Shown one piece after another: positions 37,820 to 63,562 of a DNA stretch of 64,000 nt. Under the pieces are notes generated by a model, which saw only the letters and a list, made by a program, of their open reading frames with translations, ran no database searches and had not been told where the DNA came from. How positions within the stretch are numbered: the stretch's first letter is position 1; every line of letters begins with the position of its first letter. The translations under genes and the position numbers were made by a program. Location: contig JAWCCZ010000001.1 in the NCBI GenBank assembly GCA_038861545.1, positions 352,001 through 416,000 on the forward strand, written 5' to 3'. The DNA is from Thermofilaceae archaeon (GTDB lineage Archaea; Thermoproteota; Thermoprotei; Thermofilales; Thermofilaceae).

Positions 37820-40800
37820 TCAAGCTACTTCGATGAGCTCCCCGCCCCTACCTCGAGATAGCGCCCTAACGCCTGATTCTTTCGCAGCTTTCAGGGCTAA
37901 AGAACTTAGGCTCTTATCGTCAGAATTTATATAAACGATATCCACCTCTTGCAGCTTATCTTTCACCTCGTAGGGAACTTTTTCAAACTGAACCTGGCTA
38001 AGGGATCTAACCTCCAATGCCGCTCGGTAGCCAAGTCTCTTTAAAGACTGGTCAAGAATCTTTTTAAGCCGCTCTGAATCTTCTGGCGTGAACACTAGTA
38101 AGTAACGTGGAGAGAGAAGTGTTACAGCTTCCTTGACTAATTCTTGAGAGGAGCGGATGAAGAGGGCTACACGCCCACTTCTAGCACTCCACTGCAAGGC
38201 TAGCTCGCGTACGAGAGAAGCCACATCTCTTAAGCATTGATTTGCAAAAGATGTGAAAATCGTCACTACTCTCGAATGAAGTTCGACTGTATAGTACTTG
38301 TCGGTTTTCTTCACGGCGATGGTGTTGTAGGATTTAAAGGCCCTTCCTTCAACTTGAGCATACTCGAAGTAAACTTTATAGTTTCTACCTTGCTCGAAAC
38401 TTTCCTCAAAAACTTCAACATTAAAAACGCTGACTTTATGCGCCCGCATCTCTTCAAGCCTTGAAGCGACAAACTTAGTGAAGGATTCAGCTTCTTGGGA
38501 ATCCCTAATAACAACCGGTATAGTTGTTACTAGTTCAACCGCTCTTTCTGCATCCTCTCTTCCAACTACTTCACTCTCAGGAGTCCATCTCCGCTTTAAA
38601 GAGGGGACAGCCAGTAGCACGGCTCTCATAGCCGGCTGTAAAGAGCCGAAGATCGATATAACTATAGAGGCGAGCACGGAAAATACCGCAGATGGAAGAT
38701 CCACTTTAGCGTCGACGGGCACCTGCAAATTAAATACATGAAACATGCGGAAAACCGCTAAACCCAACATGTATCCGGTAACGCCGCCTGCAAAGCCTAC
38801 AATGCAAGCACCGGTTATAAACAACACCGATAATTGATCTGGAGTAGCGCCAAGCGTTGAAAGCGTGTAGACTTCTCTTCTTAACTCATAGACAAACCCA
38901 ATAAACGACAGGAAAAGCATGAGTAATGCTATCACCGCGGGGACCACCATTTCTCCACCTCGAATTTCCAGCCTCGTACCTGGATAATAGACGCGCACAA
39001 TTTCACCCGGTTCGGATACATACACAGTGTAGCCACCGAGAACGCTTAGGCTTTCAGCAAGTTCATCGCTTTGGAATCGGTCGCTTAACTCAACGTATAC
39101 CTTGTTAGTATTTGCCCCAAGGAGTAGTGAATCCATATAATTCACGACGATTGTGCTTTCTGGAGCGACTTTCGTGGCGCTCATGCCGAATACAACAGTG
39201 GGAATCAGATCTTCACCATCGAGGTCCTTCAGCTGGGAGAACTTTCTACTGTCGAACACTCCCACAATTGTGAACTCCACTCCCTGTATTGATATTACAT
39301 CACCAACGCTTTTCTCCGTGCGCTTGGCAACTAGGTCACTGACTATTACCTTCCCTCTATCGCAGACGTCTTCGACTGCGCCCGCTATTAGCGTGCCTTT
39401 TAGAAGTTCTAAAACCGGAGAACCTCTTGATACTCCTATTATCCCACTTATCGGTACGCCTTGCAGGGTTTCTATCGGATTCATTGGGAAAAGCGCCAAA
39501 GCGTTGGGTGCAACCCAAGTAACTCCTTCTCTACCACTAATGAAACCAAGGCCCAATGGGTTTAAAGGCCCTGCTGGGGAAAGGCCCCTAGCGATCAGAA
39601 AAGTCTTACCAAGGAATTGAGAAACCCATCCGGCTTCTTGGTAACTGAGTGAAGAATAAGCAGCGAACGACGTTAAACATGTAAGGCCCGCTGACACCGC
39701 TGTAACCATCAATAGCATTAAAGTGGCTCTAGCTCTTCTCTTAGAGAAGAAGTTAACCGCGAAGTTGAAAATCGAGGAAGCCAGTCCCTCAAGTGAAGCG
39801 CCACTGGCAGTGCGCACTCCCCTTACAGTTACTACTTTCACTACACCAAGCCCCACTAAGGTAAGGCCTGCCGCTGCCGTGGTTACCGCTGCGGCTTCTG
39901 AACTCACGGTCAGCCCAGGGGTCACGGAGTAAGCAGCTAGGGTTAAAGTCACAACTAGCGCTAGAAAGGCTGTTACTCTTTTCCCTTTTTCACTGAAGAA
40001 TAGGCAAGCCATCAAGAAGCTGGCTATACCGCCGACTACGAGAAGGAAAATCGTGTACCACGGAGAGGGTCCAGTGGCTATTCTAGCTAGACGTTCGGAT
40101 ATCTCCATTAGCAAGGTAAAAGCTAGTTTTTGGTCAATGCTTACCCTTAGTCTATCTCCCTCTTTAAGCTTCAACTGCTCTACTGCTTGCGAGATCAAAA
40201 TGTTAGTGGATCCTAGGTAGTAACCATTTTCCTCTAGTTTTCTGACATTAGCCGTTAAGTTGAGTATAACCCGCTGCAGGTTTTCATTATTAGACGCGAA
40301 TATTCGCTCTGCTATAGTTGCAATACGTAGCGTCTCGTTTAGGCGTGCCGCGACGTGTTCAATAATTGTACCCCGGAATCCATCGATCTCATAATGTACA
40401 GTTAGTTCTACCTCTCTATCTGGGGGTAGTATAATGGAATTAGACATAAAATACAGCTCAGAAGCATAAGCTCCTAAAGCTAGCTGCTCCTTTGGGGAGA
40501 GGATCCTAAACATACTGTTTTCGAGAATAGGGGTATAGTTAGTTTCAACCGTGAAAATTGGAAGCTCTCCACTTAAAGAGGGGAGCGTCTCTAGAATTAC
40601 TCTGCCACCATACTCAACAGGCCATTCAATCACGAGCCCTTGCGCTAAGGAGTTTTCGTCAAGAGATAGCACGTAAGGGACAAAGTTGACTTCTCTTGAA
40701 AATGGCCCTAAAACCGCGAAGCTCTTAAAACCGGAAGGTAAACTTATTTCTGCTTGAGCCCCTTTCACTTCTACAACCAGGAGCAATGGTACTTCCACGG

Positions 40801-41092
40801 TGAACTGCCGCCGCCCCGGGAATCTTGGAAACATTGTCCTCGTAACAGTTACATTTATAGCGAAAAACCCCTCTACAGGTTTAGTGAAAAGGATTTTAAT
40901 AGTCTGTTTAGAAGTATCAAGCTCTAAATTCTGAGTAGTGAAATTACCAGGGGAAGAATATAACTGAATATTGGGAGTTGCGTAGGCAAAGCTATCTGAG
41001 GTTAAATAATGTGAAACATTAGCTAAGAGAGCTGGTTGAAAAGATAGCACGACGATCAGCAGCAGGGCCTTCAATAGCCGGAAACTTAGCAT
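37820..41092 (-). CDS. Giant FtsX/MacB-type permease (1090 aa) with N-terminal ectodomain and C-terminal cytoplasmic extension
   Basis: Signal peptide, TM bundle, MacB-like extracellular core, FtsX motif ELRREVYTLSTLGATPDQL..LF, AVPSLKRRW. Confidence 0.8.
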   Translation of the reverse strand: MLSFRLLKALLLIVVLSFQPALLANVSHYLTSDSFAYATPNIQLYSSPGNFTTQNLELDTSKQTIKILFTKPVEGFFAINVTVTRTMFPRFPGRRQFTVEVPLLLVVEVKGAQAEISLPSGFKSFAVLGPFSREVNFVPYVLSLDENSLAQGLVIEWPVEYGGRVILETLPSLSGELPIFTVETNYTPILENSMFRILSPKEQLALGAYASELYFMSNSIILPPDREVELTVHYEIDGFRGTIIEHVAARLNETLRIATIAERIFASNNENLQRVILNLTANVRKLEENGYYLGSTNILISQAVEQLKLKEGDRLRVSIDQKLAFTLLMEISERLARIATGPSPWYTIFLLVVGGIASFLMACLFFSEKGKRVTAFLALVVTLTLAAYSVTPGLTVSSEAAAVTTAAAGLTLVGLGVVKVVTVRGVRTASGASLEGLASSIFNFAVNFFSKRRARATLMLLMVTAVSAGLTCLTSFAAYSSLSYQEAGWVSQFLGKTFLIARGLSPAGPLNPLGLGFISGREGVTWVAPNALALFPMNPIETLQGVPISGIIGVSRGSPVLELLKGTLIAGAVEDVCDRGKVIVSDLVAKRTEKSVGDVISIQGVEFTIVGVFDSRKFSQLKDLDGEDLIPTVVFGMSATKVAPESTIVVNYMDSLLLGANTNKVYVELSDRFQSDELAESLSVLGGYTVYVSEPGEIVRVYYPGTRLEIRGGEMVVPAVIALLMLFLSFIGFVYELRREVYTLSTLGATPDQLSVLFITGACIVGFAGGVTGYMLGLAVFRMFHVFNLQVPVDAKVDLPSAVFSVLASIVISIFGSLQPAMRAVLLAVPSLKRRWTPESEVVGREDAERAVELVTTIPVVIRDSQEAESFTKFVASRLEEMRAHKVSVFNVEVFEESFEQGRNYKVYFEYAQVEGRAFKSYNTIAVKKTDKYYTVELHSRVVTIFTSFANQCLRDVASLVRELALQWSARSGRVALFIRSSQELVKEAVTLLSPRYLLVFTPEDSERLKKILDQSLKRLGYRAALEVRSLSQVQFEKVPYEVKDKLQEVDIVYINSDDKSLSSLALKAAKESGVRALSRGRGGELIEVA

Positions 41093-41179
41093 GCTAAGCT
41101 ACCCGAATCTCATTCTGAGAGAATCCTAATTAAGTTTTCTGTTATACTTAATTATCTTTGTATATTGTTTACTTATTAA

Positions 41180-42271
41180 CTATGAGCATTCCAAGTGAAG
41201 CTTAGAATGTTTCTCCAGTGCGTTAAGTAAGGCCTCAATGTTACTAAGTGGTACATCTTGGAGTATCTCTGCTGTAAATAGTAAACCCCCCCGTTTAAAA
41301 CCGAGTTCCTGTATTATTTTCTTGACCCGTATGTCTATCTCTTTGGGGGTGCCAAAAGGTAGGAGGCGTTGCCTATCTACATCAATATCGATAGCTACTT
41401 TCCCCTTTAAAACATTTTTAATTTCCTCTAACCTATTGATGTTTTCCTGTATGTTTAAAATATCAACGCCGGATGAAACAATATCTTCGACTATATTCAT
41501 CACGTATCCATCAGTATGCAGCCTAACTTTAGCTCCCTTACGTTTTGCTTCCGAGAATATTTTTTTGTAGCGTGGTAGAATGTATTGTCTAAATTTCTGA
41601 ATAGAATAAGGAAATCCTTTCTGAATACCGAGGTCATCTCCAAAGGAGACTACATCTACTCTCAGCTTCACCAGTTTTTTAACAACTTCAACATTATACT
41701 CTGTCACAATATCTATCAATTTTTCTAGTTGTGGAGGTTGTGTAACTAAATCTCTTAAAAAATTTAAATAACCTCTTAAATAGGTTAACCTAAGGAACAG
41801 GAAACCATGAGGCATAAAACCGATAGTTAACCCACCTAAGCTTCTAACATGATCTATAAAAGCTTCAACATCACTCCAGGGTATCGGGGGTTCCCCTTCC
41901 CTCGGTAATCCTAGTTCGGGATCTGGGATTTTTAGATCCTTCAACTTGCTCCAATCCTTTAGCGGAGCTTCCACTACGATGCCTTGCAAACCGTCAACTG
42001 CGTACTTCCATACGCACCCCCATTCATCCCTATACGTAGACGACGGCCTCGTGGGAGTATCGTAGTTGATCATACCCCTTTTAAACCCCGGGAAAATCAG
42101 TCTATGTTTTTCAACTATTTTCTCCAGTTTTTCGCGGTACCTCTTCCATGTGGGCAGCGGAATTGAAACAAAGCTAGGGATAAACCATGGATACTCAAAG
42201 TTTACAGCTTTTAGGTAGTTTTCTCTGAAAACCCTGAAGTCAACACCCATGGAAAGCCCTATGTTAATCAA
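41180..42271 (-). CDS. Uroporphyrinogen decarboxylase/MtaA-superfamily protein
   Basis: DEWGCVW, LRG...FL.DL, FGDDLGIQ, LHTDG, GTPKEI, DVPLSNI. Confidence 0.8.
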   Translation of the reverse strand: MINIGLSMGVDFRVFRENYLKAVNFEYPWFIPSFVSIPLPTWKRYREKLEKIVEKHRLIFPGFKRGMINYDTPTRPSSTYRDEWGCVWKYAVDGLQGIVVEAPLKDWSKLKDLKIPDPELGLPREGEPPIPWSDVEAFIDHVRSLGGLTIGFMPHGFLFLRLTYLRGYLNFLRDLVTQPPQLEKLIDIVTEYNVEVVKKLVKLRVDVVSFGDDLGIQKGFPYSIQKFRQYILPRYKKIFSEAKRKGAKVRLHTDGYVMNIVEDIVSSGVDILNIQENINRLEEIKNVLKGKVAIDIDVDRQRLLPFGTPKEIDIRVKKIIQELGFKRGGLLFTAEILQDVPLSNIEALLNALEKHSKLHLECS

Positions 42272-42394: not shown

Positions 42395-43876
42395 TTACTT
42401 TCTCCGACGTCTAAGCATCAGTAGAATTACCACGGCTATTACGGCAACCACACCTATTGACGCGTACATAGTTATAGGCACACCTTTTTCCATTAGTTCT
42501 GGTACCTCGGGATAGCTTGCCTCGATGTCCAGGGTTTCTATCAAGTAGCTGCCCCACTTATTCCAACCGATTCCTGGAGCCACTACCTGTATAATTAGGT
42601 AGTTGGCTCCCTTTACGGTGTGAACACCGCTACCTAAAATCACGAATTGATCCCGTGCAAGTCTTCTTTCCTCTCCATCGATGGTAGCTGTCTGATCTGC
42701 GGGCGAGAATACTATTGCTGTAGAAGGTGTGAAAAAGCGAACCTCCTGCCCAGGTCGCGAACCTATGAACGTGATACCATCGCCTATAAAGTCCTCAGTT
42801 ACTTCTCCACCGTATGTCTGCGCTGCGAGCACGGTTATATCCCCTGTGCTTTCTATTATCATGTCGAACCTGCCGATACCTAAAGGTAGGAACCAGTAAG
42901 CTTTCTGGGCTACATCTGTATCTGTAAATGAGTGCTCATTCATTACGCTAAGGTCGCTCGCCTTGTATACAGTAACCTTGCCCGCTTCTAAAGGCACGAC
43001 AACAAGAGCAGCGCTTCTACCGGTTTGCTGGTACGTTGCATGGTTGGGGAAGAAGAAAAGTTTGCCAACGTAGCCTCCAGTAATAGAAGGTACGTAAACG
43101 AACATCCCTAAAGCGGCGCTACATACTAACACGTCCCCTGTAGTTGTAAGCTCGAAGACGGAATCGTATCCCGCTGCAGCGCTAATACCGCCTTGCACCA
43201 CTCTGGATTGTATAATTGCGCGGGCGGTTCCCCTAGGGTCAACGGAACCGCTGGTTTCGAATTTGCCTACCCTATCTTTTAAACGCCATTCACTTTTTCC
43301 CAACGCTAAGAGGTAGAAGTTATGATGAACTAAATCCATAGAGTAACCGTACTGGTGAGTTGCTGGAGCCGGCATGAAAATGTAATGAGTGCCCCTAAAC
43401 CCCCCGTTTATGCTCGGATAAAACGTAGCTACTCCGGAAAACGGGTCGTCTTCGTAAGCGGCACTACCGCCGGTCAGTAATACGCCGACTCGCTTGTTTG
43501 AGACAACCTTGAAGTATATACCATACGACACGTAGAAAGTTGCCTTATCGAGCGCGTTAATCCGCGTGGAGTTTATCAGTAGCCCTGAAGTTATATCATA
43601 TATCTCTACCCTGGTATCGTCCTGATAAGCGACTATATCAAGGAGTGCATACCCGCCTGGAGGCGTGAAGTTAATTGCTTTCCCCCAAACTAGTTCAGCT
43701 AAGCTTGGCAGGTCGGTTGACGGAGGCACATAGCCGTAGTAAACATGCTGGTTAGCTTGAGCCGCGACTCTTTGAATAGGGGCTAGAAATGCTGGGAGAG
43801 AGGCTAGCATTAGAACTATAACCAGTAACTCCCTAGTAAGAAATCTTCTAAGTGAAAAAGCATTAAAAAATTTCAT
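42395..43876 (-). CDS. Surface protein with signal peptide, beta-rich (IgGFc-binding-like) ectodomain and C-terminal TM anchor
   Basis: Start moved to ATG 43876 (GGTGG upstream, 17 nt after upstream stop); IVAYQDDTRVEI, VVSNKRVGV repeats typical of IgGFc-binding-like domains; TM + RRRRK tail. Confidence 0.72.
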   Translation of the reverse strand: MKFFNAFSLRRFLTRELLVIVLMLASLPAFLAPIQRVAAQANQHVYYGYVPPSTDLPSLAELVWGKAINFTPPGGYALLDIVAYQDDTRVEIYDITSGLLINSTRINALDKATFYVSYGIYFKVVSNKRVGVLLTGGSAAYEDDPFSGVATFYPSINGGFRGTHYIFMPAPATHQYGYSMDLVHHNFYLLALGKSEWRLKDRVGKFETSGSVDPRGTARAIIQSRVVQGGISAAAGYDSVFELTTTGDVLVCSAALGMFVYVPSITGGYVGKLFFFPNHATYQQTGRSAALVVVPLEAGKVTVYKASDLSVMNEHSFTDTDVAQKAYWFLPLGIGRFDMIIESTGDITVLAAQTYGGEVTEDFIGDGITFIGSRPGQEVRFFTPSTAIVFSPADQTATIDGEERRLARDQFVILGSGVHTVKGANYLIIQVVAPGIGWNKWGSYLIETLDIEASYPEVPELMEKGVPITMYASIGVVAVIAVVILLMLRRRRK

Positions 43877-43893
43877 ATTTTTATCCACCGCCC

Positions 43894-45903
43894 CTAGTAA
43901 GTGCCGAATACCATGTACCTCGCGATGTTGACTATACTCACCAGCACTATACCCAGTATCTCGCCCGCGATAATTCCAACCGCTACCGGAACGCCAACTT
44001 CCTCGTAAGCTTTCCTGCCCCCGACTTTCAGTAGAGCGTACTTTACTGCCCAGACGATTAAAGGAGTAAATGTCCCCACGTGCCATGTATAGAAGTCATG
44101 TAGGCCTAGCATGAAGCCCAGCGGCTCAAGCGGCCACCATGGGAACCTTAACCTTAAGAAGACTAAAGCGCCAGCGAGTAGGAAGCCTACTAGACCAGGT
44201 ATAGAGGCGATGCTGAGTCTCGGATTATAGAATCCAGCGTCTCCATCCCAGAAGTAATCCCATTCTTTAGCTACTGGTAATTCCATGAATCCCCACGCGT
44301 GTAACGCGATGAATGTTAACGGTATTGCGATGACAGCCGTTATTATACTCCCTATAACCAGTAGTTTGTAGACAGTGTCAGCTCTAACGCCAGCCATCTG
44401 CGCGACCTTAAAGCTATCCATTGCACCCATCATCGTTGAGTAGTAGGGGCCGTAGGTATCGCATCCTGTGCCCCACCTGCATGTATGCGAAATTATGAAG
44501 AGCTTACCAGCAGGGTACTGAGGAGCGGCTGGCAGGGTATCTCCCACGAAGGGTTTCCAGTAGTAAGCGCCTCTCAGGAACGTGACGTTAGCAGTGTAAG
44601 CCCTAGCCCTTGTCAACACAACTACCTGAAGCCAAATAACGAATAATCCTAGGATAGCATCCTGAGGTTCTACGTTGGAAGCGATGAAGAGGGCGATTAA
44701 GCCTACTGCACCGAGTAGAACTAGAAGGTATGCCAGCCGGTATGATACTTCGCCCTCCGCGGATTTACCACCAGAAGTTGTTAACTTAAATGTTTGTGCA
44801 AAGTATTTCCAGTTAACTAGGATGAAGAATACTAGGATGCCGAGCGCCATGCCGGCAGAGATTACTTCAAAGTAGAATGGTTCACCGTAGTATATCATCC
44901 ACCACTTGCTCCACTGGCCGACCGTATATATACCCGTATAGTACCCGAAGTAGGACATTATCTGGGGCAGTAACGTGGTGAACACTAGGTGCGCGAACCA
45001 CATCGAGAACAGAGCATCCAGGGGGACGAGGAAGAAGAATGCATAGCGAAGCGGGTCTGTAGAGAACACTACGACTTGAGCTAGGCTCGACTGGAGCACA
45101 GGATATGCCTGGGTCATCTGGAACTGGCCAGTGGACCATGATAGGTAGTTCGGGCTCGTCAGCCATCCGTAAAAGTCCGGCAATCCCGGATAAGCTGAGT
45201 AAATCATGTAGGGTACGTAGAAAAGCACACCAAGCAGAAAAGCAATCTTAAAGTACTTCTTGAACTTGGTTGGGCTCGGCGTTAAAGCAGCCTCGGCAAT
45301 AAGCCATCCTTGCGCGTGTGGGAACGGCAGCACCTCTATCTCAACCCATAGTCTTCGAAAAACTCCGGCCCATCCTAGGAAGAAAGCTGCAGTAACGACG
45401 TACCAGAAGACGTACGTGCCAATTACAGGCATCCACTCATTGGCATACACAGAGAATAAGTTGTTAAGCGAGTTTCGGTAGAACATGCCCCTAACTGCAT
45501 CTGCCGACGGCATCCATATCATCGGTAGAGCATAACCGTGTGTCTCTGCTGTGGCAACCCGTATATTAAAGAGGGCTGCAGGTGTAGTATAGAAGCCTTT
45601 GAATACCGTGTACCAAGTAGCTATACCGGTCCCTATATAGATGAGGCAAAACATCTGTCTATCAATTTTCAACAGCCCTCTCTCCATGAGGAGCATCATT
45701 ATCGCGGCAACAGACCAGGGTAACGCGATTGCGCATAGAAGCCCGCCGGAGGGGCCGATGTTAATTCCTCCCGTACCCCAGGCGGCTGGCAGGAACAGGG
45801 TTTCAATAGTTATTAATGCCGATAGTAGAGCGGTGTAAACAATTACTACAAGCCATTGCTTGCTCGTTAAAACCCGGATTTCCTCACTTTTTGTCGCCAT
45901 CAC
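43894..45903 (-). CDS. OPT-superfamily-like polytopic membrane protein (DUF6785/DUF6784-like)
   Basis: About 15 TMs; FRRLWVEIEVLPFP and RLRFPWWPLEPLGF motifs; LKVGGRKAYE. Confidence 0.7.
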   Translation of the reverse strand: MMATKSEEIRVLTSKQWLVVIVYTALLSALITIETLFLPAAWGTGGINIGPSGGLLCAIALPWSVAAIMMLLMERGLLKIDRQMFCLIYIGTGIATWYTVFKGFYTTPAALFNIRVATAETHGYALPMIWMPSADAVRGMFYRNSLNNLFSVYANEWMPVIGTYVFWYVVTAAFFLGWAGVFRRLWVEIEVLPFPHAQGWLIAEAALTPSPTKFKKYFKIAFLLGVLFYVPYMIYSAYPGLPDFYGWLTSPNYLSWSTGQFQMTQAYPVLQSSLAQVVVFSTDPLRYAFFFLVPLDALFSMWFAHLVFTTLLPQIMSYFGYYTGIYTVGQWSKWWMIYYGEPFYFEVISAGMALGILVFFILVNWKYFAQTFKLTTSGGKSAEGEVSYRLAYLLVLLGAVGLIALFIASNVEPQDAILGLFVIWLQVVVLTRARAYTANVTFLRGAYYWKPFVGDTLPAAPQYPAGKLFIISHTCRWGTGCDTYGPYYSTMMGAMDSFKVAQMAGVRADTVYKLLVIGSIITAVIAIPLTFIALHAWGFMELPVAKEWDYFWDGDAGFYNPRLSIASIPGLVGFLLAGALVFLRLRFPWWPLEPLGFMLGLHDFYTWHVGTFTPLIVWAVKYALLKVGGRKAYEEVGVPVAVGIIAGEILGIVLVSIVNIARYMVFGTY

Positions 45904-46045
45904 GCATTTTCAACGAAGCTTAATTTAAATTTTACGCATAGGTTTAAAAAGGGTATGAAATAGGCGAATCTTATTTATCTTTCTGTTGATTAGTATAAAA
46001 AGAGGAGAGAAAGCTTTAAAGCGTATCCAGTTGTCGAGTGCTTGC

Positions 46046-57436: not shown

Positions 57437-59713
57437 TTACTCCTCAAGTATTACGTCGGCCTGAGTTAAGAAGAGACGACGCGAGGCCACTTCCAAAGTT
57501 TTTCCTACTACTTTCAACTGACCCTCCAAGACTGTATCCTCTGCATGCCTAGCTACAATCACTCTATACTCTCCAGGCTCTACAACAAGCCTTGCATTTC
57601 TATCGTAAAAGGCGAGTAGTTCAATAGGAAGCTTGAAAGTGACCTGCACTCTCTTACCCGGTTCTATCGTTATGCGTTTAAAGCCTCTGAGTTCCCTTAC
57701 CGGTCTAGTAACGCTTGAGCGTTTTTTGGTAATATACAGCTGAACCACTTCATCGCCTTTAATTTCACCTATATTCTCTACAGTTACAGAAACTTCAACA
57801 GTATTTCCGTTTTCGATTACTTCCGGTTTAATCCGCAAATCACTGTACTTGAATTTCGTATAGCTCAATCCGAAGCCGAGTGGGAATAAAGGCTTTGAAT
57901 CTAGTTCTACATAGGGGTTAAAGGAAGCCCCCCTCCTGTAGTAATATACCGGTATCTGGCCCGCTTCCTTAGGCACCGAAATCGGTAACCTACCACCCGG
58001 GCTGTAAATTCCGAATATTATCTCGGCTAATGCTAACCCTCCTTCTTCACCAGGGTACCAGGCCTCAATTAGAGCATTCAATCTCTCTAGGATATCGGGT
58101 GGCAGCGATATAGGCCTTCCATTCACCAGAACCAGCACCGTTGCTTTACCGAGCGAAAGTATCCTCCGAAGCAGTTCCTCCTGGACTCCTGGTAACCCTA
58201 AGCTTACCCTATCCACCCCTTCCCCCGACGAGAGTTCAGGGTTGGATAGCCAGAAGCCACCGGAGCGTTCTCCCATGACAGCTATCACAACGTCCGCGTT
58301 TTGGGAAACTTTCAAAGCTTCCTCGAAGCCATCTGTTCGATGGGAGCGGACACTGCAACCCTCGGCATAGGATACTTTAGTCCCAGGTGGAGCTAAGCTC
58401 TTTAGCCCCTCGAGTACTGAGGTTACTTTGACCGTGGGTTCGGGTAAACCCACATGCGCTGCATAGTGGTAGTCTCCTAAAAGCGCTGTTCCACTGGCGG
58501 CGTTAGGGCCTATAACAGCTACATTTCTAACATGTTTTCTAAGTGGAAGGATCCCGTCATTCTTGAGTAACACGATCGATTCCCTGGCGGCTTCTCGAGC
58601 CAAGTTCCTAGCTTCATGGGTGTCAAGCGTCTCTGGCACTTCTTCATTTACGTACGGGTTCTCAAATAACCCGAGCAAGAACTTCAAGGTAAGGACTCTT
58701 TCGACAGCCCTGTCTATGTCATTTGCCGAAACTAAGCCTTCATGCACGCCGTCGATAAGGCGTAAATAACAGTCAGGATGAGGCAGCTCTATATCTACTC
58801 CCGCTTCAAGCGCCTGAATAGCTGCATCTAAATCCCTTTCCGCAACTCGATGTGCAGTTTCAAGTTGACGAACCGCAAAGTAGTCTGAAACAACTATCCC
58901 CTTAAAACCCCATTCACCCCTTAAAAGATCTGTAAGAAGCCAGCGGTTTGCATGACAAGGCACACCATCGATTTCATGGTAAGCAGGCATAACCGATAAC
59001 GCACCAGCCTCCTTTACGGCCGCTTCAAAGGGGAAGAGGAATACCTCTCGGAGTTCTCGGATACCTACCTGTACTCGAGCAGTATTTCTCCCTCCTTCAG
59101 GAAAACCGTGAGCAGCAAAGTGTTTAAGGGTTGCAACAATACCCTTACGCAAATCGTCGGACTGCAAGCCCATTACATATGCAACGCCCATTGCTGCAAC
59201 CAAGTAGGGATCCTCACCATAAGTTTCTTCGGTCCTCCCCCAACGAGGATCCCTGCATACATCAAGGACGGGCGCTAAGCATTGGTTTGTGCCCACAAGC
59301 CTAGCTTGCCTTCTAATTTCATCTGCTACCCTGAAGACCAGCTCAGGATTCCATGTGCTGGCTAAACCTATAGCTTGAGGGAAGCAAGTTGCCGTGCTAG
59401 CCATTAAACCCGCGAGCGATTCCTCGTGTACTATAGCTGGTATGTGGTGCGGTGTCTCCTCGACTAGGAACCATTGAATATCGTTTACAAGCTTGGCCGC
59501 TTCTCTAGGTCTTAGAGCTAACCTGCTACCAGATACTCTGGTAATCTCCCCTATTCCATACTTTAACACTTCTAGAGCTTTCGCTTTTGAGAAACTTTTC
59601 CCTTCAACTAGAGCTTCTACCGGAAGCGAGACAAGTTGAGCCACTTTTTCTTCGAGGCTCATCTCCGAGAGGAGGCTTCTTACCCTCCTCTCCACCCCCT
59701 CTCCATGCGTCAC
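57437..59713 (-). CDS. GH3 beta-xylosidase/beta-glucosidase
   Basis: HEESLAG, RDPRWGRTEETYGEDP, LKHFAAHG, VSDY (nucleophile), SGEGVDR, FnIII-like C-terminus. Confidence 0.92.
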   Translation of the reverse strand: MTHGEGVERRVRSLLSEMSLEEKVAQLVSLPVEALVEGKSFSKAKALEVLKYGIGEITRVSGSRLALRPREAAKLVNDIQWFLVEETPHHIPAIVHEESLAGLMASTATCFPQAIGLASTWNPELVFRVADEIRRQARLVGTNQCLAPVLDVCRDPRWGRTEETYGEDPYLVAAMGVAYVMGLQSDDLRKGIVATLKHFAAHGFPEGGRNTARVQVGIRELREVFLFPFEAAVKEAGALSVMPAYHEIDGVPCHANRWLLTDLLRGEWGFKGIVVSDYFAVRQLETAHRVAERDLDAAIQALEAGVDIELPHPDCYLRLIDGVHEGLVSANDIDRAVERVLTLKFLLGLFENPYVNEEVPETLDTHEARNLAREAARESIVLLKNDGILPLRKHVRNVAVIGPNAASGTALLGDYHYAAHVGLPEPTVKVTSVLEGLKSLAPPGTKVSYAEGCSVRSHRTDGFEEALKVSQNADVVIAVMGERSGGFWLSNPELSSGEGVDRVSLGLPGVQEELLRRILSLGKATVLVLVNGRPISLPPDILERLNALIEAWYPGEEGGLALAEIIFGIYSPGGRLPISVPKEAGQIPVYYYRRGASFNPYVELDSKPLFPLGFGLSYTKFKYSDLRIKPEVIENGNTVEVSVTVENIGEIKGDEVVQLYITKKRSSVTRPVRELRGFKRITIEPGKRVQVTFKLPIELLAFYDRNARLVVEPGEYRVIVARHAEDTVLEGQLKVVGKTLEVASRRLFLTQADVILEE

Positions 59714-59737: not shown

Positions 59738-60706
59738 TTATCGGTTAGCTCTCTTTTTAGCCGTTAAATACACGAATATTGTTGCGGCGATTACGGTGAC
59801 AGCCACGAATGCTAGTAGAGTGTATAGGAGCGCAGACCCTGCTCTTTTCTCGCCGACTTCTTGGAGGCTTAACTCGCTTATTATCTTCGACTTCAGCTCA
59901 TTGAGCGGTGCGCCAGCTGATAACTCTCCATAAATCAATGCAAGTTTTTCAACACCGGATGAAGGCGTATTAGAGTAGGGTAGCAGGTACACGATAAACC
60001 TGACCGTCTGTCCGGCTGACAACGTAAATTGTTGGGCTATCCAATTCCTTAGAGAGTAAACGCTTCCACCCCACTCTCTTTCATCGTCTATGCTAACCGG
60101 CATCCCCTGCGGCCAAGCATCAGAGATCACCGAAAAAATTAACCCGTTTTCTTCATCTACCGGAACTACATAACCGATTGCCTCATTCATCCAAGTGAGC
60201 TGGAATTCCCCAGGTACACTTTCTTCCCTAAGCCTTACAGGGATCAAACTTCCATTCATTAAGGCGATGTACACGTTTTTACCCGAAAATCGGTTTATAG
60301 GTAGCTGAAGGGTCCACGAAAGGCCAGAGAAGCTTGAGTCCGAGACTACGGTGAAATTAATCTCTAGAAGGGATTCAGCAAGCCCTAGCCAGTACTTAAC
60401 TTTTGGTCTAATTTCTGCGTACTCGCACCTAGCATAACATTCTAATTCAACTTCGGTTTCAGATCCCGTAGGGCCAGATACTAGCCTCCACTCACTTTGA
60501 GAGCTACAAGCGCTAACCCAGCTCCAACCTGGCCCCCAGTTCATCAAGCTGCCAGTACCCACGCTAATCCCCTCTTTACTGAGGCCGAGAACCCCTCTAT
60601 TGGATATATTGAAGGTTAAGGGTCCAACTTCATAGTTAGGTTGGGCTGGGGCAGATGCCGCTACAACCACGAAAAATAAAAGTAGAAGTTCCCATGCGCG
60701 TTCCAC
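59738..60706 (-). CDS. Trp-rich surface protein with signal peptide and C-terminal TM anchor (paralog of 17266-18237)
   Basis: WGPGWSWVSACS, SSFSGLSW, VRLREESVPGEF, DAWPQGM, DDEREWGGSVYSLRNW; TM + KKRANR. Confidence 0.8.
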   Translation of the reverse strand: MERAWELLLLFFVVVAASAPAQPNYEVGPLTFNISNRGVLGLSKEGISVGTGSLMNWGPGWSWVSACSSQSEWRLVSGPTGSETEVELECYARCEYAEIRPKVKYWLGLAESLLEINFTVVSDSSFSGLSWTLQLPINRFSGKNVYIALMNGSLIPVRLREESVPGEFQLTWMNEAIGYVVPVDEENGLIFSVISDAWPQGMPVSIDDEREWGGSVYSLRNWIAQQFTLSAGQTVRFIVYLLPYSNTPSSGVEKLALIYGELSAGAPLNELKSKIISELSLQEVGEKRAGSALLYTLLAFVAVTVIAATIFVYLTAKKRANR

Positions 60707-60736
60707 AACAGCTTTAGCAATGCATGCCTATAAAAG

Positions 60737-63562
60737 TTAAGCTGACTTTATGCGCGATTTTTTCCACTCTACGTAATGCAGTAGATCGTCCCGCAGTGAG
60801 GTTAGGAAATCTTTAACGCAAGCTTTGTGATCAACCGTCCACTCTCCGGTCGAGGAGTAGGCTACGGCTTTTACCGTTTCCCCGGGATCCCTTGGCAGGT
60901 AAATACGAGTCAGGTAAACAGCCGCTCTCTCAGACCTAAAGCTAACAACCGCTTCTATCTCGCTCACATGTTGATCTTGCTTTTTCACACGTACGTCCAG
61001 GTATATCGGACCCCAGCCGATTGGAGGAGGCCTGTTGCAAAGCGATTTAACATACTCAGCGAAGAGGTCTTCGTCCCCAGTTATGCGAAGCGGTATACTG
61101 GTCTCAGCCATATCCTCCATCAAATTAACTTCAGCTTTCTTCCTTAGCATTAACCGGCTAGGTACAACCCTTAAAGCCGCTTCTCTAGCCGGGATTAAGC
61201 TACCCACGAGGGAAGGGATTACAGCTACTAAGATACTAGTAACCATAGGACTGAAAACGTGCGGTTTAAGCTGCACAACTTTCGCCGGAATTGATACTTG
61301 GAGGAATTCTCCCAACAGGTAGCCAACAACTCCCCCAAGCACACCGTAGCTTAAACCTTCGACGATAACCATAGCCGAAATCATACCAGGGCTAGCGCCT
61401 AGAGCACTGGCTGTCGAATACTCCCTTCTCCTTTCATGCATGGAGCCCAGCAGCGATACAGCTACGGTTAAGGAAGCTATAGCGACAACCACGGTGAACT
61501 CAGGTATCCCTGCTAACTGCTGGAATTCGCCGACGATTAACATGCATTGGGTTACACTACCGTCCCCTGAGCAGACGCGGTAGGACTCGTAGACATAAGT
61601 TGTCACCTGAGCCCCTCCCACTGCAGACATGTTCCCGCTCCATACGTAGCTCATCCTCACAAGCCTCTCGGCAGCTTCCGGAGGCGGTGTACCGACTAAG
61701 ATAACCCTGTACACTTGAGACCCCTCGGGGGCGAGATCCATATCACCTAGCAGAACGTACCCGCCGACTTCATCTAATTGAACGCCGTCAACCAACTTTG
61801 GGATAGACAACGCGTTAAACACGTCGAGAACGGGAACGGTTTTCCCATTCACTTTGATAATATCTCCCTTGTTGAACCCAAGTCTTCTAGCTAACTCCTC
61901 CGAGACAGCAACCCCCTCAAGATCAGAAGCGTTTGCCGTAACCATTGCCGCGAATAGCTTAGAGCCCCCATATTCCACCACAACCCTGCCTACAGCTACA
62001 GTGTAGAGCCCTTCAACCCAGTCCAGGCTTGCCAGCCATTTAATCTCGGCTTCTGTAAATGGAGTATACTTTTCCTCGATTATGACTTCGTTAGCTTGAT
62101 CCATTCCTCTAAATATAATCCTCTGAATAGTAGCATGACGGCTAAAACTTAACCCTTTGAACTCAGAGGTATGGCTTTCTTCCCTGATTACTGTGTTTGT
62201 CCCTATAGCTAGGAAAGCACTTGCAACCGCTGTAACAACAGCTATGGTTAAAATTGTCAGTATAGATCTTAACTTTCTACTCTTCATGCTTTTAACCGAG
62301 TACCAGAAGAAGTCGCTGACCGCTGTTCCTTTCGCTGAAAGCACAACCATTGATACGACTGCGAGCGATAAAGCAGCCGTGAAAATAGAGAGAGTCATCG
62401 TGGAGGGAGACGCGGCTCTTAACACGTCAGGGTTAAGGAATTGCAAAGCCATTCGAGCGTAGGGTAGAAGTGCCACTTCAAGCACAGTTAAACTAGCAAA
62501 AGCCATTAAACTTGTAGCTCCCTTTCTTCTCTCTACGAGTTGGCCAATTATCGAGGAAAGGAAGAACGTGAAAGTTAATAAAAACAAGAAAGCCGGTACG
62601 CTGTCGCTTTTTATCTGGCTTAGAGTGTCTAGAGCAGAGCCAGCTTTTGAAAGGCTTTTGGCTAAAAGCTCGTTAGCAACTCCGAGCTCCCCGAGTTTCA
62701 AAGCGTCCTCGCTTTGTTTTAAAAGCTCTACAGCGAATTCGAGATCACTAGTATAAGCCCTTGCATCGAAGCCTGCTTTGGATAACAGGTTTTCTTCGTA
62801 AGTTATATGCCTTTCAAGTCCTTCTCGGACGCTTTTAATAGTTAAGTAAGCAAGGCTGACGTTCCCATCATCGCATGAAATACTGCATGTTAACCCCAAC
62901 CCTCTATCGAAATCCCTCCAGGCAATACCGTAGGTTGATACTCTACCCAGTAGCTTGCCTACAGCGGCAGAAGCATCAATCGTTAGTGGTACTTGTATGG
63001 AAGATGAAACCGGAAGCACAAGAGGGTAATAGTAGTAACCCTCCATTTCTACTAATCTTAGACCGTACCGCCATCGGCTTATAGTGGATAGCCCGACACC
63101 TTCGATTGTTTCATTAACATTTATTAGAAGTAAACAAGCTTTCCCCACCTCGATTTCAAGGTTAAAGCCCTCAGCCGTGCTAGCTGGTATCACGTTTAAG
63201 ATAGCCGAAAAAGATCCGAGCCCTGTAAGGGTATACGTGATCTCGTTGCTAGATCTGAAGGTTACCCACTCACCACTCCAGATCGCCTCGTTAACTCCTT
63301 TGGCGCGTAGCGCTACAAAATTACCGTCAAAGCGCACGGCCAAAATGGTGCTACTCCCTACACCATCGATACTGCATAGGCCATTACTCAGCTTACAAGA
63401 GACCTCGTAGCGGTTTCCTTTTTCATCTAGAGTTAGATAAAGAGTAGAGTTCAGAGCCCCCTTTTCACCAGTTACCTTTACTAGGAGAACCTCCGGTGCA
63501 GCGGCTACAATTACGGACGCCCACACAGCTATTATAAATGCCGAAGCGGGTTTACATGCCAT
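60737..63562 (-). CDS. Giant FtsX/MacB-type permease (941 aa)
   Basis: Signal peptide, ectodomain, TM bundle, SRKLRSILTIL, ERRREYSTASALGASPG FtsX motif, VVPSR, C-terminal extension. Confidence 0.8.
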   Translation of the reverse strand: MACKPASAFIIAVWASVIVAAAPEVLLVKVTGEKGALNSTLYLTLDEKGNRYEVSCKLSNGLCSIDGVGSSTILAVRFDGNFVALRAKGVNEAIWSGEWVTFRSSNEITYTLTGLGSFSAILNVIPASTAEGFNLEIEVGKACLLLINVNETIEGVGLSTISRWRYGLRLVEMEGYYYYPLVLPVSSSIQVPLTIDASAAVGKLLGRVSTYGIAWRDFDRGLGLTCSISCDDGNVSLAYLTIKSVREGLERHITYEENLLSKAGFDARAYTSDLEFAVELLKQSEDALKLGELGVANELLAKSLSKAGSALDTLSQIKSDSVPAFLFLLTFTFFLSSIIGQLVERRKGATSLMAFASLTVLEVALLPYARMALQFLNPDVLRAASPSTMTLSIFTAALSLAVVSMVVLSAKGTAVSDFFWYSVKSMKSRKLRSILTILTIAVVTAVASAFLAIGTNTVIREESHTSEFKGLSFSRHATIQRIIFRGMDQANEVIIEEKYTPFTEAEIKWLASLDWVEGLYTVAVGRVVVEYGGSKLFAAMVTANASDLEGVAVSEELARRLGFNKGDIIKVNGKTVPVLDVFNALSIPKLVDGVQLDEVGGYVLLGDMDLAPEGSQVYRVILVGTPPPEAAERLVRMSYVWSGNMSAVGGAQVTTYVYESYRVCSGDGSVTQCMLIVGEFQQLAGIPEFTVVVAIASLTVAVSLLGSMHERRREYSTASALGASPGMISAMVIVEGLSYGVLGGVVGYLLGEFLQVSIPAKVVQLKPHVFSPMVTSILVAVIPSLVGSLIPAREAALRVVPSRLMLRKKAEVNLMEDMAETSIPLRITGDEDLFAEYVKSLCNRPPPIGWGPIYLDVRVKKQDQHVSEIEAVVSFRSERAAVYLTRIYLPRDPGETVKAVAYSSTGEWTVDHKACVKDFLTSLRDDLLHYVEWKKSRIKSA

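What the first reader, a model, noticed from the sequence alone, without database searches (positions are those of the whole stretch)
37820..63562. Candidate uncharacterised multi-subunit uptake machine: giant FtsX permeases, OPT-like transporters and anchored surface proteins, interleaved with glycosidases
Seen in sequence: three very large FtsX/MacB-type permeases (37820-41092, 46046-50521, 60737-63562) and two ~15-TM proteins sharing an E-x-L-x-F-P motif (43894-45903, 50524-52476). There are also two signal-peptide/C-terminal-TM surface proteins (42395-43876, 59738-60706) and a GT-C-like protein. The core is a divergent pair of tight operons (gaps 2, 16 and 17 nt), plus an FtsX-surface protein-GH3 run. 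Known: MacB/FtsX proteins are mechanotransducers or extractors rather than solute pores, and OPT-family proteins are proton-coupled importers; no characterised system pairing them is known to me. Inference: surface receptors capture glycans or glycopeptides, FtsX subunits hand them to OPT-like channels, and signal-peptide-less GH3/GH106-like enzymes and pentose kinases finish catabolism. This would be an archaeal functional analogue of SusCD polysaccharide-utilisation loci. Alternative: a surface-protein export/glycosylation machine.
Basis: partly seen in the sequence, partly recalled or inferred. Interest (0 to 1): 0.88.

Follow-up and report, generated by a model that had tools for sequence, protein, structure and literature searches.

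The report
Archaeal FtsX-giant plus OPT-fold permease module
A hot-spring archaeon carries six copies of an undescribed gene module that pairs a giant surface protein on a MacB/FtsX-type membrane base with one or two oligopeptide-transporter-fold permeases; it is probably a new kind of nutrient-uptake machine, but its cargo and energy source are unproven.

Summary
All listed genes exist at the stated coordinates with the stated features. The two ~15-TM proteins are full-length homologues of each other. A confident model of one has the fold of the barley Yellow Stripe 1 (OPT/YSL) transporter.

The core is a conserved module. The window's Thermofilaceae genome has six paralogous pairs of a ~1500-aa pseudo-M28/FtsX giant and an OPT-fold permease, four of them with a second, DUF6785-type permease. 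The permease family occurs in 48 of 201 sampled genomes of the phylum. It lies next to a giant in 17 of 20 loci checked, and the two genes co-diverge. The window's seven-gene version recurs in other lineages.

No ABC ATPase is fused or adjacent. However, a mini-FtsX gene, usually beside a MacB-type ATPase, is present in every module-bearing genome sampled. The motor is therefore probably encoded in trans.

The glycan link is suggestive only. Glycosidases recur near modules in several lineages, but enrichment in this genome is weak.

The FtsX-surface protein-GH3 run, the DNA ligase and a coiled-coil gene are not part of the conserved unit.

I found no literature on the pairing. Earlier notes of this scan describe the same module on other genomes.

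The parts
46046..50521 (+). Giant FtsX protein (P0004). Order of parts: N-terminal anchor, ~780-aa ectodomain with a pseudo-M28 domain, three extra TMs, MacB-type TM1-PCD-TM2-4 core, conserved ~140-aa cytoplasmic alpha/beta domain.
   Evidence: Pfam Peptidase_M28, MacB_PCD and FtsX. TM map. Model of the last 560 aa has pLDDT 81.6 and matches MacB, LolCE and HrtB (Foldseek E 2.5e-12; VIA Z 13-16). The catalytic Glu-Glu pair and the last His ligand are lost in 22/22 family members.
50524..52476 (+). OPT/YSL-fold permease of the 'F2' type (P0005). It has no Pfam match and starts 2 nt after the giant.
   Evidence: AF2 model pLDDT 86.4. Barley YS1 (7wsr/7wst): Foldseek E 3e-8, TM 0.60-0.67; VIA Z 22.5, rmsd 3.7 A over 539 residues, next best Z 7.3. 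hhalign to DUF6785 proteins E 3e-32.
43894..45903 (-). Second OPT/YSL-fold permease, DUF6785+DUF6784 type (P0003), divergent from the giant.
   Evidence: Pfam PF20581 and PF20580 above cut-off. An 80%-identical orthologue is named 'OPT/YSL family transporter' by NCBI.
45904..46045 (.). 142-nt AT-rich divergent intergenic region between the two operons. Presumed promoters.
   Evidence: Sequence read. No shared operator was recognised by eye among the module upstream regions.
52493..54889 (+). 798-aa polytopic GT-C-like protein (P0006), 16 nt after the F2 permease.
   Evidence: The Atlas's own model (pTM 0.83) matches PTPS_related and YfhO clusters at TM 0.68-0.71 over 620-640 residues. No Pfam hit. 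Orthologue kept next to the module in L017, L037, L038 and L039.
42395..43876 (-). 493-aa anchored surface protein (P0002): signal or anchor segment, beta-rich body, C-terminal TM.
   Evidence: TM map. No family match. Orthologues kept in the same position in L037-L039 and L027. Paralogues at own C6 (next to a module) and at C1:322036.
41180..42271 (-). URO-D / MtaA-like TIM-barrel protein. Role unknown. A conserved member of this module variant.
   Evidence: Pfam URO-D E 3e-21. NCBIfam MtaA/CmuA hits far below cut-offs. Conserved adjacency in L037, L038 and L039.
37820..41092 (-). Second FtsX protein (P0001, 1090 aa): ~320-aa ectodomain, three extra TMs, MacB-type core, ~270-aa cytoplasmic tail.
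   Evidence: Pfam FtsX and MacB_PCD. Orthologue kept in L037-L039; in L038 it is 1715 aa with a weak Glyco_hydro_2_N hit. Similar ~1000-aa FtsX genes sit in or near modules in L021, L022, L026, L033 and L062.
60737..63562 (-). Third FtsX protein (P0008, 941 aa), first gene of a separate FtsX-surface protein-GH3 run.
   Evidence: Pfam FtsX only. Distant paralogue of the others. Not syntenic with the core in L037.
59738..60706 (-). 322-aa Trp-rich anchored surface protein (P0007).
   Evidence: Four paralogues in the genome, one more beside a GH3 at C2:144267-147447. Family found in only 4 of 201 genomes.
57437..59713 (-). Cytoplasmic GH3 glycosidase.
   Evidence: Pfam GH3 N-terminal, C-terminal and Fn3-like domains. 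No signal peptide.

Best explanation
The core of the finding (37820-54889) is one copy of a conserved, undescribed archaeal membrane module. Its invariant pair is a ~1500-aa protein and an OPT/YSL-fold permease.

The large protein carries a catalytically dead M28-like ectodomain on a MacB/FtsX (type VII ABC) transmembrane base. A second OPT-fold permease (DUF6785/6784) is usually present as well. Variable accessories occur; in this window they are a second FtsX protein, an anchored surface protein, a GT-C-like protein and a URO-D-like protein.

Most likely mechanism (inferred):
- The big ectodomains capture an oligomeric nutrient at the cell surface.
- The FtsX bases are powered by a MacB-type ATPase encoded elsewhere, beside a mini-FtsX gene, and shared by all paralogous modules. 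They supply mechanical work or gating.
- The OPT-fold permeases carry the product across the membrane by cation symport.
- Cytoplasmic glycosidases and kinases then degrade it.

The cargo class is unsettled: oligosaccharide or glycopeptide is favoured by context, and peptide cannot be excluded.

Shown here: gene content, folds, conservation, co-divergence, loss of peptidase residues, and phyletic coupling to the mini-FtsX gene.

Inferred: physical complex, direction of transport, substrate and energy coupling.
For: Module recurrence and linkage:
- Six giant+F2 pairs in the own genome, four with a DUF6785 gene.
- The F2 family is in 48 of 201 genomes of the phylum, often multi-copy.
- F2 is adjacent to a giant in 17 of 20 loci from diverse genomes.
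- The seven-gene set is conserved in L037-L039, and in L038/L039 all seven lie on one strand.

Co-divergence:
- Mantel r 0.82, p 2e-4.
- Each own paralogue's nearest relative lies in another genome for both genes in several pairs.

Folds:
- F2 matches barley YS1 and is homologous to DUF6785 proteins.
- The FtsX core matches MacB and LolCE.
- All characterised OPT members are cation-coupled importers (PMC3061005). The same paper predicted xylo-oligosaccharide uptake for a Bacteroides OPT subcluster from gene context.

Pseudo-peptidase: catalytic residues are lost in 22/22 giants.

Motor in trans:
- A mini-FtsX (Pfam FtsX E 2e-18) lies beside an ABC ATPase at C3:19994-21492. A close orphan ATPase paralogue is at C5:60848.
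- Short mini-FtsX orthologues occur in 48 of 48 F2-positive genomes and in 8 of 153 F2-negative ones. At least 2 of those 8 carry DUF6785 genes.
- Within-family contrasts in f1, f7, f20 and f30 agree.
- Mini-FtsX is adjacent to an ABC ATPase in 7 of 10 loci.
- Mini-FtsX plus two ATPases lie about 3 kb from the single module of G046 and G198.
- The ERxRE coupling-helix region is invariant in the giants.

Carbohydrate context:
- Glycosidases near modules: GH3 and GH106-like (window), GH29, GH127, GH31, GH57, GH35/42, GH51, GH130.
- Other sugar-related neighbours: Gfo/Idh/MocA oxidoreductases, xylose-isomerase-like barrels, ROK and SIS.
Against: - No experiment or expression data bears on function.
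- Own-genome glycosidase enrichment near FtsX genes is weak (about 38% against about 20% expected, n=13). Many neighbours are unrelated (RuBisCO, MttB-like, IMPDH, CPSase, DNA ligase).
- All characterised MacB-type systems export, extract or transduce force outwards. None assists import.
- GT-C-type genes recur (YfhO/PTPS-like here, PMT-like in L021) and a DegT aminotransferase sits in L018. These point towards glycan assembly rather than catabolism.
- In f30 genomes the mini-FtsX is followed by 277-aa and 324-aa non-ABC proteins.
- Phyletic co-occurrence among related genomes overstates independence.
- Bacterial loci were not examined here.
Confidence: 0.5

Rival explanations
1. Envelope-assembly or surface-glycosylation machine. 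The FtsX proteins, acting like LolCDE or FtsEX, extract, position or activate anchored surface proteins or lipid-linked glycans. The GT-C-like enzyme glycosylates them outside the cell. The OPT-fold proteins export or recycle a precursor.
For: - A GT-C-like gene is conserved in the window's module variant. A PMT-type GT-C lies between the FtsX and permease genes in L021, and a DegT sugar aminotransferase lies in L018.
- Anchored surface proteins are conserved inside the module.
- All solved structural relatives of the FtsX core act outwards: MacB, LolCDE, FtsEX, HrtBA.
Against: - Six to eight paralogous copies per genome with divergent ectodomains fit specificity variants of a nutrient system better than a housekeeping assembly machine.
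- GT-C-like genes are absent from the other five own modules.
- All characterised OPT members are importers.
- The recurrent neighbours are signal-peptide-less glycosidases and sugar kinases.
Confidence: 0.2
2. Linked but mechanistically separate functions. The OPT-fold proteins are ordinary stand-alone proton-coupled importers. The FtsX giants are independent ABC-type exporters, sensors or surface receptors (Bce-like or ADOP-like) that use a trans ATPase. The genes are kept together only by co-regulation.
For: - No interface evidence exists.
- DUF6785-family genes are very numerous: 5364 clusters at E<=1e-3.
- In 3 of 20 loci the F2 gene has no adjacent giant.
- Orphan FtsX permeases without adjacent ATPases are a known annotation class (ADOP, TIGR03434; own knowledge; weak hits).
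Against: - Adjacency with 2-nt gaps or overlaps is kept across deep divergence (25-58% identity). The two genes co-diverge (r 0.82), and paralogues are inherited as units. This is tighter than typical regulon-level linkage.
- All six own giants have an F2 neighbour.
Confidence: 0.18
3. Peptide-foraging system. The M28-like head binds peptide or protein termini, as other inactive peptidase folds act as receptors. The OPT-fold permeases import oligopeptides. The glycosidase neighbours are coincidental in a sugar-rich genome.
For: - An M28-derived ectodomain is present in every giant.
- Characterised OPT substrates are peptides and metal chelates, and prokaryotic OPT context often points to peptides.
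- Peptidase neighbours occur in some loci: TldD/PmbA in own C1b, Peptidase_U32 in L062, an intact M28 in L037.
- Glycosidase enrichment is weak in this genome.
Against: - Glycosidases or sugar-catabolic genes lie beside modules in at least six independent lineages.
- The L038 orthologue of the second FtsX has a weak sugar-binding-domain hit.
- Peptidase neighbours are fewer.
Confidence: 0.12

Closest known systems
OPT/YSL transporters (TC 2.A.67; Pfam PF03169; barley Yellow Stripe 1, PDB 7wsr/7wst)
   Same: Same overall fold for the ~650-aa permeases (VIA Z 22.5 over 539 residues). Some homologues carry PF03169 hits, and NCBI names one orthologue OPT/YSL.
   Different: The window proteins do not reach PF03169. 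P0005 matches no Pfam family at all. The NPG and KIPPR motifs are absent. The genes are obligatorily linked to FtsX-type giants, which is not reported for any characterised OPT. The substrate is unknown.
Type VII ABC systems (MacB, LolCDE, FtsEX, HrtBA, BceAB, YbbAP)
   Same: Four-TM FtsX bundle with a periplasmic core domain between TM1 and TM2, an elbow helix and an ERxRE coupling-helix region.
   Different: No fused or adjacent nucleotide-binding domain. Three extra TMs. A ~780-aa pseudo-peptidase ectodomain. A conserved C-terminal alpha/beta domain of unclear fold (best Z 8-9). Constant pairing with secondary-transporter-fold proteins. The candidate motor is encoded in trans beside a mini-FtsX.
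Binding-protein-dependent secondary transporters (TRAP, TTT) and SusCD polysaccharide-utilisation loci
   Same: Functional analogy only: a surface receptor plus a non-ABC translocator, multiplied per genome, with catabolic enzymes nearby.
   Different: No homologous parts. Receptor function of the ectodomains and glycan specificity are not shown. An ATP-driven component is probably involved as well.
Inactive M28-fold receptors (transferrin receptor, nicastrin; own knowledge)
   Same: An M28-like domain that has lost the catalytic Glu and metal ligands, displayed outside the cell.
   Different: Fused to an FtsX membrane base. The conserved replacement motif S-G-H-[WY]-Q has unknown meaning. Ligand binding is untested.
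YfhO / PTPS_related GT-C glycosyltransferases
   Same: P0006 shares their overall predicted architecture (TM 0.68-0.71).
   Different: No sequence-family match. Donor, acceptor and catalytic residues were not examined. Present in only one of the six own modules.

Membership tests
OPT/YSL family (PF03169, TC 2.A.67) | Polytopic ~16-TM fold as in HvYS1 | tested here: met
   P0005 model (pLDDT 86.4) against 7wsr: VIA Z 22.5, rmsd 3.7 A, 539 residues; Foldseek E 3e-8
OPT/YSL family (PF03169, TC 2.A.67) | Sequence match to PF03169 above the gathering score | tested here: not met
   No PF03169 hit for P0003 or P0005, even at E 10. Weak or partial hits occur in some homologues only
OPT/YSL family (PF03169, TC 2.A.67) | Conserved NPG and KIPPR motifs (PMC3061005) | tested here: not met
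   Neither string is present in P0003 or P0005
OPT/YSL family (PF03169, TC 2.A.67) | Cation-coupled uptake of peptides or metal chelates | not testable with these tools
   Needs transport assays
DUF6785/DUF6784 (PF20581/PF20580) | Match above the Pfam gathering scores | tested here: met
   P0003 scores 40.2 and 53.3 bits against cut-offs of 25 and 26.4. P0005 is related only by profile-profile comparison (hhalign E 3e-32)
Type VII ABC transporter (MacB/LolCDE/FtsEX) | FtsX four-TM domain | tested here: met
   PF02687 in all three proteins. P0004 model against MacB, LolE and HrtB: Foldseek E 2.5e-12, VIA Z 13-16
Type VII ABC transporter (MacB/LolCDE/FtsEX) | Periplasmic core domain between TM1 and TM2 | tested here: met
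   P0001 scores 29.1 bits (cut-off 27). P0004 scores 24.3 bits, but its model matches the MacB periplasmic domain 3ftj at Z 13.6, rmsd 3.8 A, 185 residues. P0008 has no Pfam PCD hit
Type VII ABC transporter (MacB/LolCDE/FtsEX) | Cognate ABC nucleotide-binding domain, fused or encoded alongside | tested here: not met
   No ABC_tran hit in the proteins. No ABC ATPase lies beside any of the ten large FtsX genes of the genome, and none is directly adjacent to the module in 20 other loci. A trans candidate exists: mini-FtsX plus ATPase at C3:19994-21492
Type VII ABC transporter (MacB/LolCDE/FtsEX) | ATP-driven mechanotransmission | not testable with these tools
   Needs biochemistry
M28 metallopeptidase | Catalytic Glu and the two-zinc ligand set (His, Asp, Glu, Asp, His) | tested here: not met
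   Glu-Glu is replaced by His-[Tyr/Trp/other] and the last His is lost in 22 of 22 giants. The first His is Tyr in about half. An intact M28 of the same window (15921-17165) served as reference
GT-C glycosyltransferase (YfhO / PTPS_related) | GT-C membrane fold with extracytoplasmic C-terminal domain | tested here: inconclusive
   Atlas model of P0006 matches YfhO and PTPS_related clusters at TM 0.68-0.71. No Pfam hit. No comparison with solved GT-C structures was made
GT-C glycosyltransferase (YfhO / PTPS_related) | Catalytic acidic residue in the first external loop; polyprenyl-phosphate sugar donor | not tested
   A G-W-D-H motif follows TM1 (read) but was not aligned to known enzymes
SusCD-type polysaccharide utilisation locus | SusC TonB-dependent barrel plus SusD lipoprotein | tested here: not met
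   No such families among the Pfam results for the region. Functional analogy only
ADOP duplicated orphan permease (TIGR03434) | Match above the NCBIfam cut-off; duplicated FtsX domains | tested here: not met
   20.8-26.1 bits against a cut-off of 622. There is a single FtsX domain per protein

The most novel reading that the evidence does not exclude
The module is a categorically new hybrid transporter. Type VII ABC mechanotransducers (specific giant FtsX subunits, a shared mini-FtsX and shared MacB-type ATPases) are physically coupled to OPT-fold secondary carriers. ATP-driven movements of a giant receptor ectodomain would load or gate a proton-coupled permease. This would be an archaeal answer to SusCD and TonB for harvesting large oligomers, with six to eight specificity variants per genome sharing one motor.
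Probability: 0.3. Interest if true: 0.9.

Novelty: new variant of a known kind. Interest (0 to 1): 0.68.

Why it matters
Many uncultured Thermoproteota, including Bathyarchaeia-like lineages, are thought to live on polymers and detrital organic matter, yet how they take up large substrates is largely unknown.

This module is widespread: a quarter of the sampled genomes of the phylum, and thousands of protein clusters in metagenomes. It is multi-copy and completely uncharacterised.

It joins two transporter classes that are not known to work together. It also offers a concrete case of FtsX-type proteins that appear orphaned but may share a motor encoded elsewhere.

If it is a real complex, it would define a new transport architecture. 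It would also give a handle for predicting substrate use from archaeal genomes, as polysaccharide-utilisation loci do for Bacteroidota.

Tried and rejected
- **Complex prediction** (giant-FtsX TM pieces 828-985 and 1238-1352 with the F2 permease): no verdict, score 0.03 against a mark of 0.32. Not evidence either way.
- **Sequencing runs:** no RNA holder is listed. The stretch is held only by DNA runs of hot-spring metagenomes from two studies, so co-transcription could not be examined.
- **The search for related loci** with alignments A2 and A3 failed for lack of a conserved stretch. Bacterial genome context was therefore not examined.
- **Context look-ups on distant DUF6785 representatives** landed on contigs too short to show neighbours.
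- **Exact look-up of the window's own F2 protein:** not on record.
- **Profile searches of A1 and A2 against PDB sequences:** nothing significant.
- **C-terminal cytoplasmic domain of the giant:** only middling structural matches, Z 8-9 (spermine synthase N-domain, KA1, Bet v 1) plus a weak Foldseek hit to ZhuI. No fold assignment is made. It is not an ABC ATPase.
- **Shared operator in module upstream regions:** none seen by eye. No motif program was run.
- **jackhmmer from P0006:** found only direct orthologues, not the ~790-880-aa neighbours in other loci. Pfam shows those as GH57, GH127-like or unassigned.
- **Literature searches** for DUF6785, for FtsX with OPT and archaea, and for FtsX with Bathyarchaeota found no description of the pairing.
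- **Idea rejected:** that the whole 37820-63562 span is one system.
Full report
**1. Checking the observation**

FtsX proteins:
- P0001 (37820-41092, minus strand, 1090 aa) has Pfam FtsX and MacB_PCD.
- P0004 (46046-50521, plus strand) has Peptidase_M28, MacB_PCD and FtsX.
- P0008 (60737-63562, minus strand, 941 aa) has FtsX only.
- No ABC_tran domain is found in any of them.
- The three are paralogous only over the FtsX core.

Other genes:

| Protein | Coordinates | Result |
|---|---|---|
| P0003 | 43894-45903 | DUF6785 and DUF6784 above cut-off |
| P0005 | 50524-52476 | no Pfam or NCBIfam match |
| P0002 | 42395-43876 | N-terminal hydrophobic segment and C-terminal TM |
| P0007 | 59738-60706 | same topology; unrelated to P0002 |

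- The gaps of 2, 16 and 17 nt are as stated.
- The GH3 and the GH106-like protein have no signal peptide.
- Sugar kinases and a ribulose-phosphate epimerase lie upstream.
- The span also holds an ATP-dependent DNA ligase and a coiled-coil protein. These have no evident link to the rest.

**2. What the two polytopic proteins are**

- BLASTP does not relate P0003 and P0005 (E 0.016).
- Alignments of each family built from related loci (A1, A2) match over their full length by profile-profile comparison: probability 99.9, E 3e-32.
- Both families share the E-x-[LIVM]-x-F-P motif.
- An AlphaFold2 model of P0005 from a 35-sequence alignment is confident (pLDDT 86.4, pTM 0.86).
- Its only strong match among solved structures is the barley Yellow Stripe 1 transporter. 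Foldseek gives E 3e-8 and TM 0.60-0.67. VIA-align gives Z 22.5, rmsd 3.7 A over 539 residues, with the next chain at Z 7.3.
- Atlas neighbours are 'peptide transporter' clusters, one with OPT on 21% of members, and a DUF6784/6785 cluster.
- Some homologues carry PF03169 hits, and NCBI names an 80%-identical orthologue of P0003 'OPT/YSL family transporter'.

'OPT-like' is therefore right at the level of fold and distant homology. Neither window protein reaches PF03169, and both lack the NPG and KIPPR motifs (motifs from PMC3061005).

The superfamily is large. A profile of A2 finds 5364 clusters at 50% identity with E<=1e-3.

**3. The core is a recurring module**

Searching the window's own 1.63-Mb genome showed six paralogous pairs of a ~1500-aa M28-FtsX giant with an adjacent P0005-type ('F2') permease. 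Four pairs also have a DUF6785 gene, and two have a P0002-like surface protein.

Across 201 genomes sampled from the phylum:
- F2 homologues occur in 48 genomes, often in several copies.
- They were not found in the three complete genomes of the sister genus.
- In 20 loci fetched from diverse genomes, F2 lies next to a giant in 17, usually with a DUF6785-type gene.
- In the other three loci it lies near a ~1060-aa FtsX gene and a ~697-aa polytopic gene.

Named close homologues come from Thermofilaceae MAGs, and all are annotated 'hypothetical'.

Two Pfam-annotated look-ups show that the window's version is conserved as a seven-gene set. The first is a Thermofilaceae relative (L037). The second is a lineage at 58% identity (L038, L039), where all seven genes lie on one strand. 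The set is:
1. GT-C-like protein
2. giant
3. F2 permease
4. DUF6785 permease
5. 490-aa surface protein
6. second FtsX
7. URO-D-like protein

Distance matrices of the giant's FtsX core and of F2 over 20 modules correlate (r 0.82, Mantel p 2e-4). Several own paralogues have their nearest relative in another genome for both genes. The pair has therefore been inherited and duplicated as a unit. Physical linkage contributes to this signal.

**4. The giant**

Topology:
- an N-terminal anchor
- a ~780-aa ectodomain
- three extra TMs
- a cytoplasmic elbow
- TM1, a periplasmic core domain and TM2-4
- a ~150-aa cytoplasmic tail

A model of the last 560 residues (pLDDT 81.6) matches MacB, LolC/E, HrtB, FtsX and BceB. 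Foldseek E goes down to 2.5e-12 and VIA Z is 12-16. The MacB periplasmic domain matches at Z 13.6.

The tail is a conserved alpha/beta domain with invariant Trp and Pro positions. It has only middling structural matches (Z 8-9), so I assign no fold. It is not a nucleotide-binding domain.

The M28-like domain was aligned to the intact M28 peptidase of the same window. It lacks the catalytic Glu-Glu pair and the last His ligand in all 22 giants examined. A conserved S-G-H-[W/Y]-Q stands in their place. It is a pseudo-peptidase family-wide. This agrees with the scan's own note on this window.

**5. The missing ATPase**

- A motif scan finds 28 ABC-type ATPases in the genome. None lies beside any of the ten large FtsX genes.
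- In the 20 other loci no ATPase is directly adjacent to the module.
- Yet the elbow and the ERxRE coupling-helix region are strongly conserved. In solved relatives that region docks the nucleotide-binding domain (own knowledge of MacB and LolCDE structures).

Earlier notes of this scan on other genomes suggested a shared motor elsewhere and mentioned a 'mini-FtsX' with MacB/LolD ATPases. I tested that lead here.

| Test | Result |
|---|---|
| Own genome | 238-aa FtsX-domain protein without a periplasmic domain at C3:19994-20710 (Pfam FtsX E 2e-18), followed by a 242-aa ABC ATPase |
| Own genome | That ATPase has a close orphan paralogue at C5:60848-61594 |
| F2-positive genomes (48) | Short full-length mini-FtsX orthologues in all 48 |
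| F2-negative genomes (153) | Present in 8; at least two of these carry several DUF6785-type genes |
| Within-family contrasts | Presence and absence agree in families f1, f7, f20 and f30 |
| Adjacency | Mini-FtsX directly beside a ~240-aa ABC ATPase in 7 of 10 loci |
| G046 and G198 (complete genomes, one module each) | Mini-FtsX and two ATPases sit about 3 kb from the module |
| Family f30 | Mini-FtsX lies 1-10 kb from the module but is followed by non-ABC proteins |

These genomes are related, so the counts overstate independence. The pattern still makes a trans-encoded, shared motor the best reading. 'ATPase-less' then applies to the locus, not to the system.

**6. Accessory genes**

- **P0006.** It has no family match by sequence. 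The Atlas's model of it (pTM 0.83) aligns to PTPS_related and YfhO clusters at TM 0.68-0.71 over 620-640 residues. Both families belong to the GT-C glycosyltransferase clan (own knowledge). This is a lead, not a membership proof.
- **Other glycan-assembly genes.** A PMT-type GT-C sits inside the L021 cluster, and a DegT aminotransferase sits in L018.
- **URO-D-like protein.** It resembles MtaA/CmuA methyltransferases, but far below the family cut-offs. Its role is unexplained.
- **P0002.** It belongs to an uncharacterised archaeal family.

**7. Carbohydrate link**

Glycosidases or sugar-catabolic genes lie within about 10 kb of modules in several lineages:

| Locus | Neighbours |
|---|---|
| Window | GH3, GH106-like |
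| Own C7 | GH29, Gfo/Idh/MocA oxidoreductases |
| Own C6 | Gfo/Idh/MocA oxidoreductases, xylose-isomerase-like barrel |
| Own C1:129533 | GH127, beside a stand-alone FtsX gene |
| L038 | GH31 |
| L020 | GH57 |
| L062 | GH35/42, ROK, SIS |
| L063 | GH51, GH130 |

Points against a strong link:
- A partial census of the own genome found five GH3 genes, one GH31, four GH57 and no GH1, in addition to the GH106-like, GH29 and GH127 genes.
- Only about 5 of these 13 lie within 15 kb of a large FtsX gene. About 20% would be expected from the share of the genome those windows cover. That is not significant.
- Other neighbours are plainly unrelated.

All characterised OPT members are cation-coupled importers of peptides or metal chelates. 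Prokaryotic members were uncharacterised in 2011, and gene context had already suggested xylo-oligosaccharide uptake for one Bacteroides subcluster (PMC3061005).

**8. What is not part of it**

- Synteny with the Thermofilaceae relative ends after the DNA ligase.
- The P0007 family occurs in only 4 of 201 genomes.
- P0007 recurs beside a GH3 without any FtsX gene at C2:144267-147447.
- The P0008-P0007-GH3 run is therefore a separate, lineage-specific unit.

**9. Mechanism and rivals**

| Reading | Confidence |
|---|---|
| Receptor-assisted import system: pseudo-peptidase ectodomains on FtsX bases, driven by a shared trans ATPase and mini-FtsX, serving OPT-fold permeases | about 0.5 |
| Envelope-assembly or glycosylation machine, supported by the GT-C-type genes and the outward action of all known MacB-type systems | about 0.2 |
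| Co-regulated but mechanically independent proteins | about 0.18 |
| Peptide rather than glycan cargo | about 0.12 |

The complex prediction gave no verdict, and no RNA data are available.

**10. Novelty**

- Literature searches found nothing on DUF6785 and nothing on an FtsX-OPT pairing.
- The scan itself has noted the same module on at least four other genomes, including bacterial ones. Follow-up agents reached similar readings. Those notes are not independent evidence. I did not examine bacterial loci.
- I class the finding as a new variant built from known kinds of parts.
- There is about a 30% chance that it is a new hybrid transporter architecture.

Noticed in passing
window 36540-37820: About 1.3 kb without any long ORF lies between a small Cys-rich ORF and the first FtsX gene. 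One frame near 37240-37300 reads C-G-Y-D-T-D-Y-T-C-A-T-A-G-A-I-L-G. From memory this resembles the ADP-ribosylglycohydrolase family, so it may be a decayed gene.
   Followed up: no
G000:C1:247455-249563 (outside the window; L001): The DUF6785-type gene of another own module is interrupted by an in-frame TGA and reads as 173-aa and 490-aa pieces. It may be a pseudogene, a sequencing error or a read-through.
   Followed up: no
G000:C3:19994-21492 and G000:C5:60848-61594: A mini-FtsX (238 aa, no periplasmic domain) lies beside a 242-aa ABC ATPase. A close orphan paralogue of that ATPase (phmmer E 8e-115) has no neighbouring permease. Together they are candidates for a shared heterodimeric motor.
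   Followed up: partly
L075-L078 (family f30 genomes): Here the mini-FtsX gene is followed by conserved 277-aa and 324-aa cytoplasmic proteins with no ABC motifs and no similarity to the own ATPase. This may be a different partner in that lineage.
   Followed up: no
window 59738-60706 and 17266-18237; G000:C2:139763-147447: The Trp-rich anchored surface protein family (P0007) has four copies in the genome. Two sit directly beside GH3 genes. The family was found in only 4 of 201 genomes of the phylum.
   Followed up: partly
window 41180-42271; G000:C2:227733-229001; L037-L039: A URO-D / MtaA-like protein is kept next to this module variant in distant lineages. An MttB-superfamily gene lies beside another own module (C1:467708-469135). 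No link between methyltransferase-like genes and the module could be explained.
   Followed up: partly
window 54984-56564: The ATP-dependent DNA ligase sits directly after the GT-C-like gene here and also in the Thermofilaceae relative L037, but not in L038 or L039. This is probably local synteny without functional meaning.
   Followed up: partly
window 15921-17165: A stand-alone M28 peptidase retains the catalytic motifs (H-x-D, G-A-T-D, E-E, H-T-x-x-D). It served as the reference for the pseudo-peptidase call.
   Followed up: yes
G000:C1:466193-467614: A RuBisCO large-subunit homologue lies next to one of the modules. It was not examined further.
   Followed up: no
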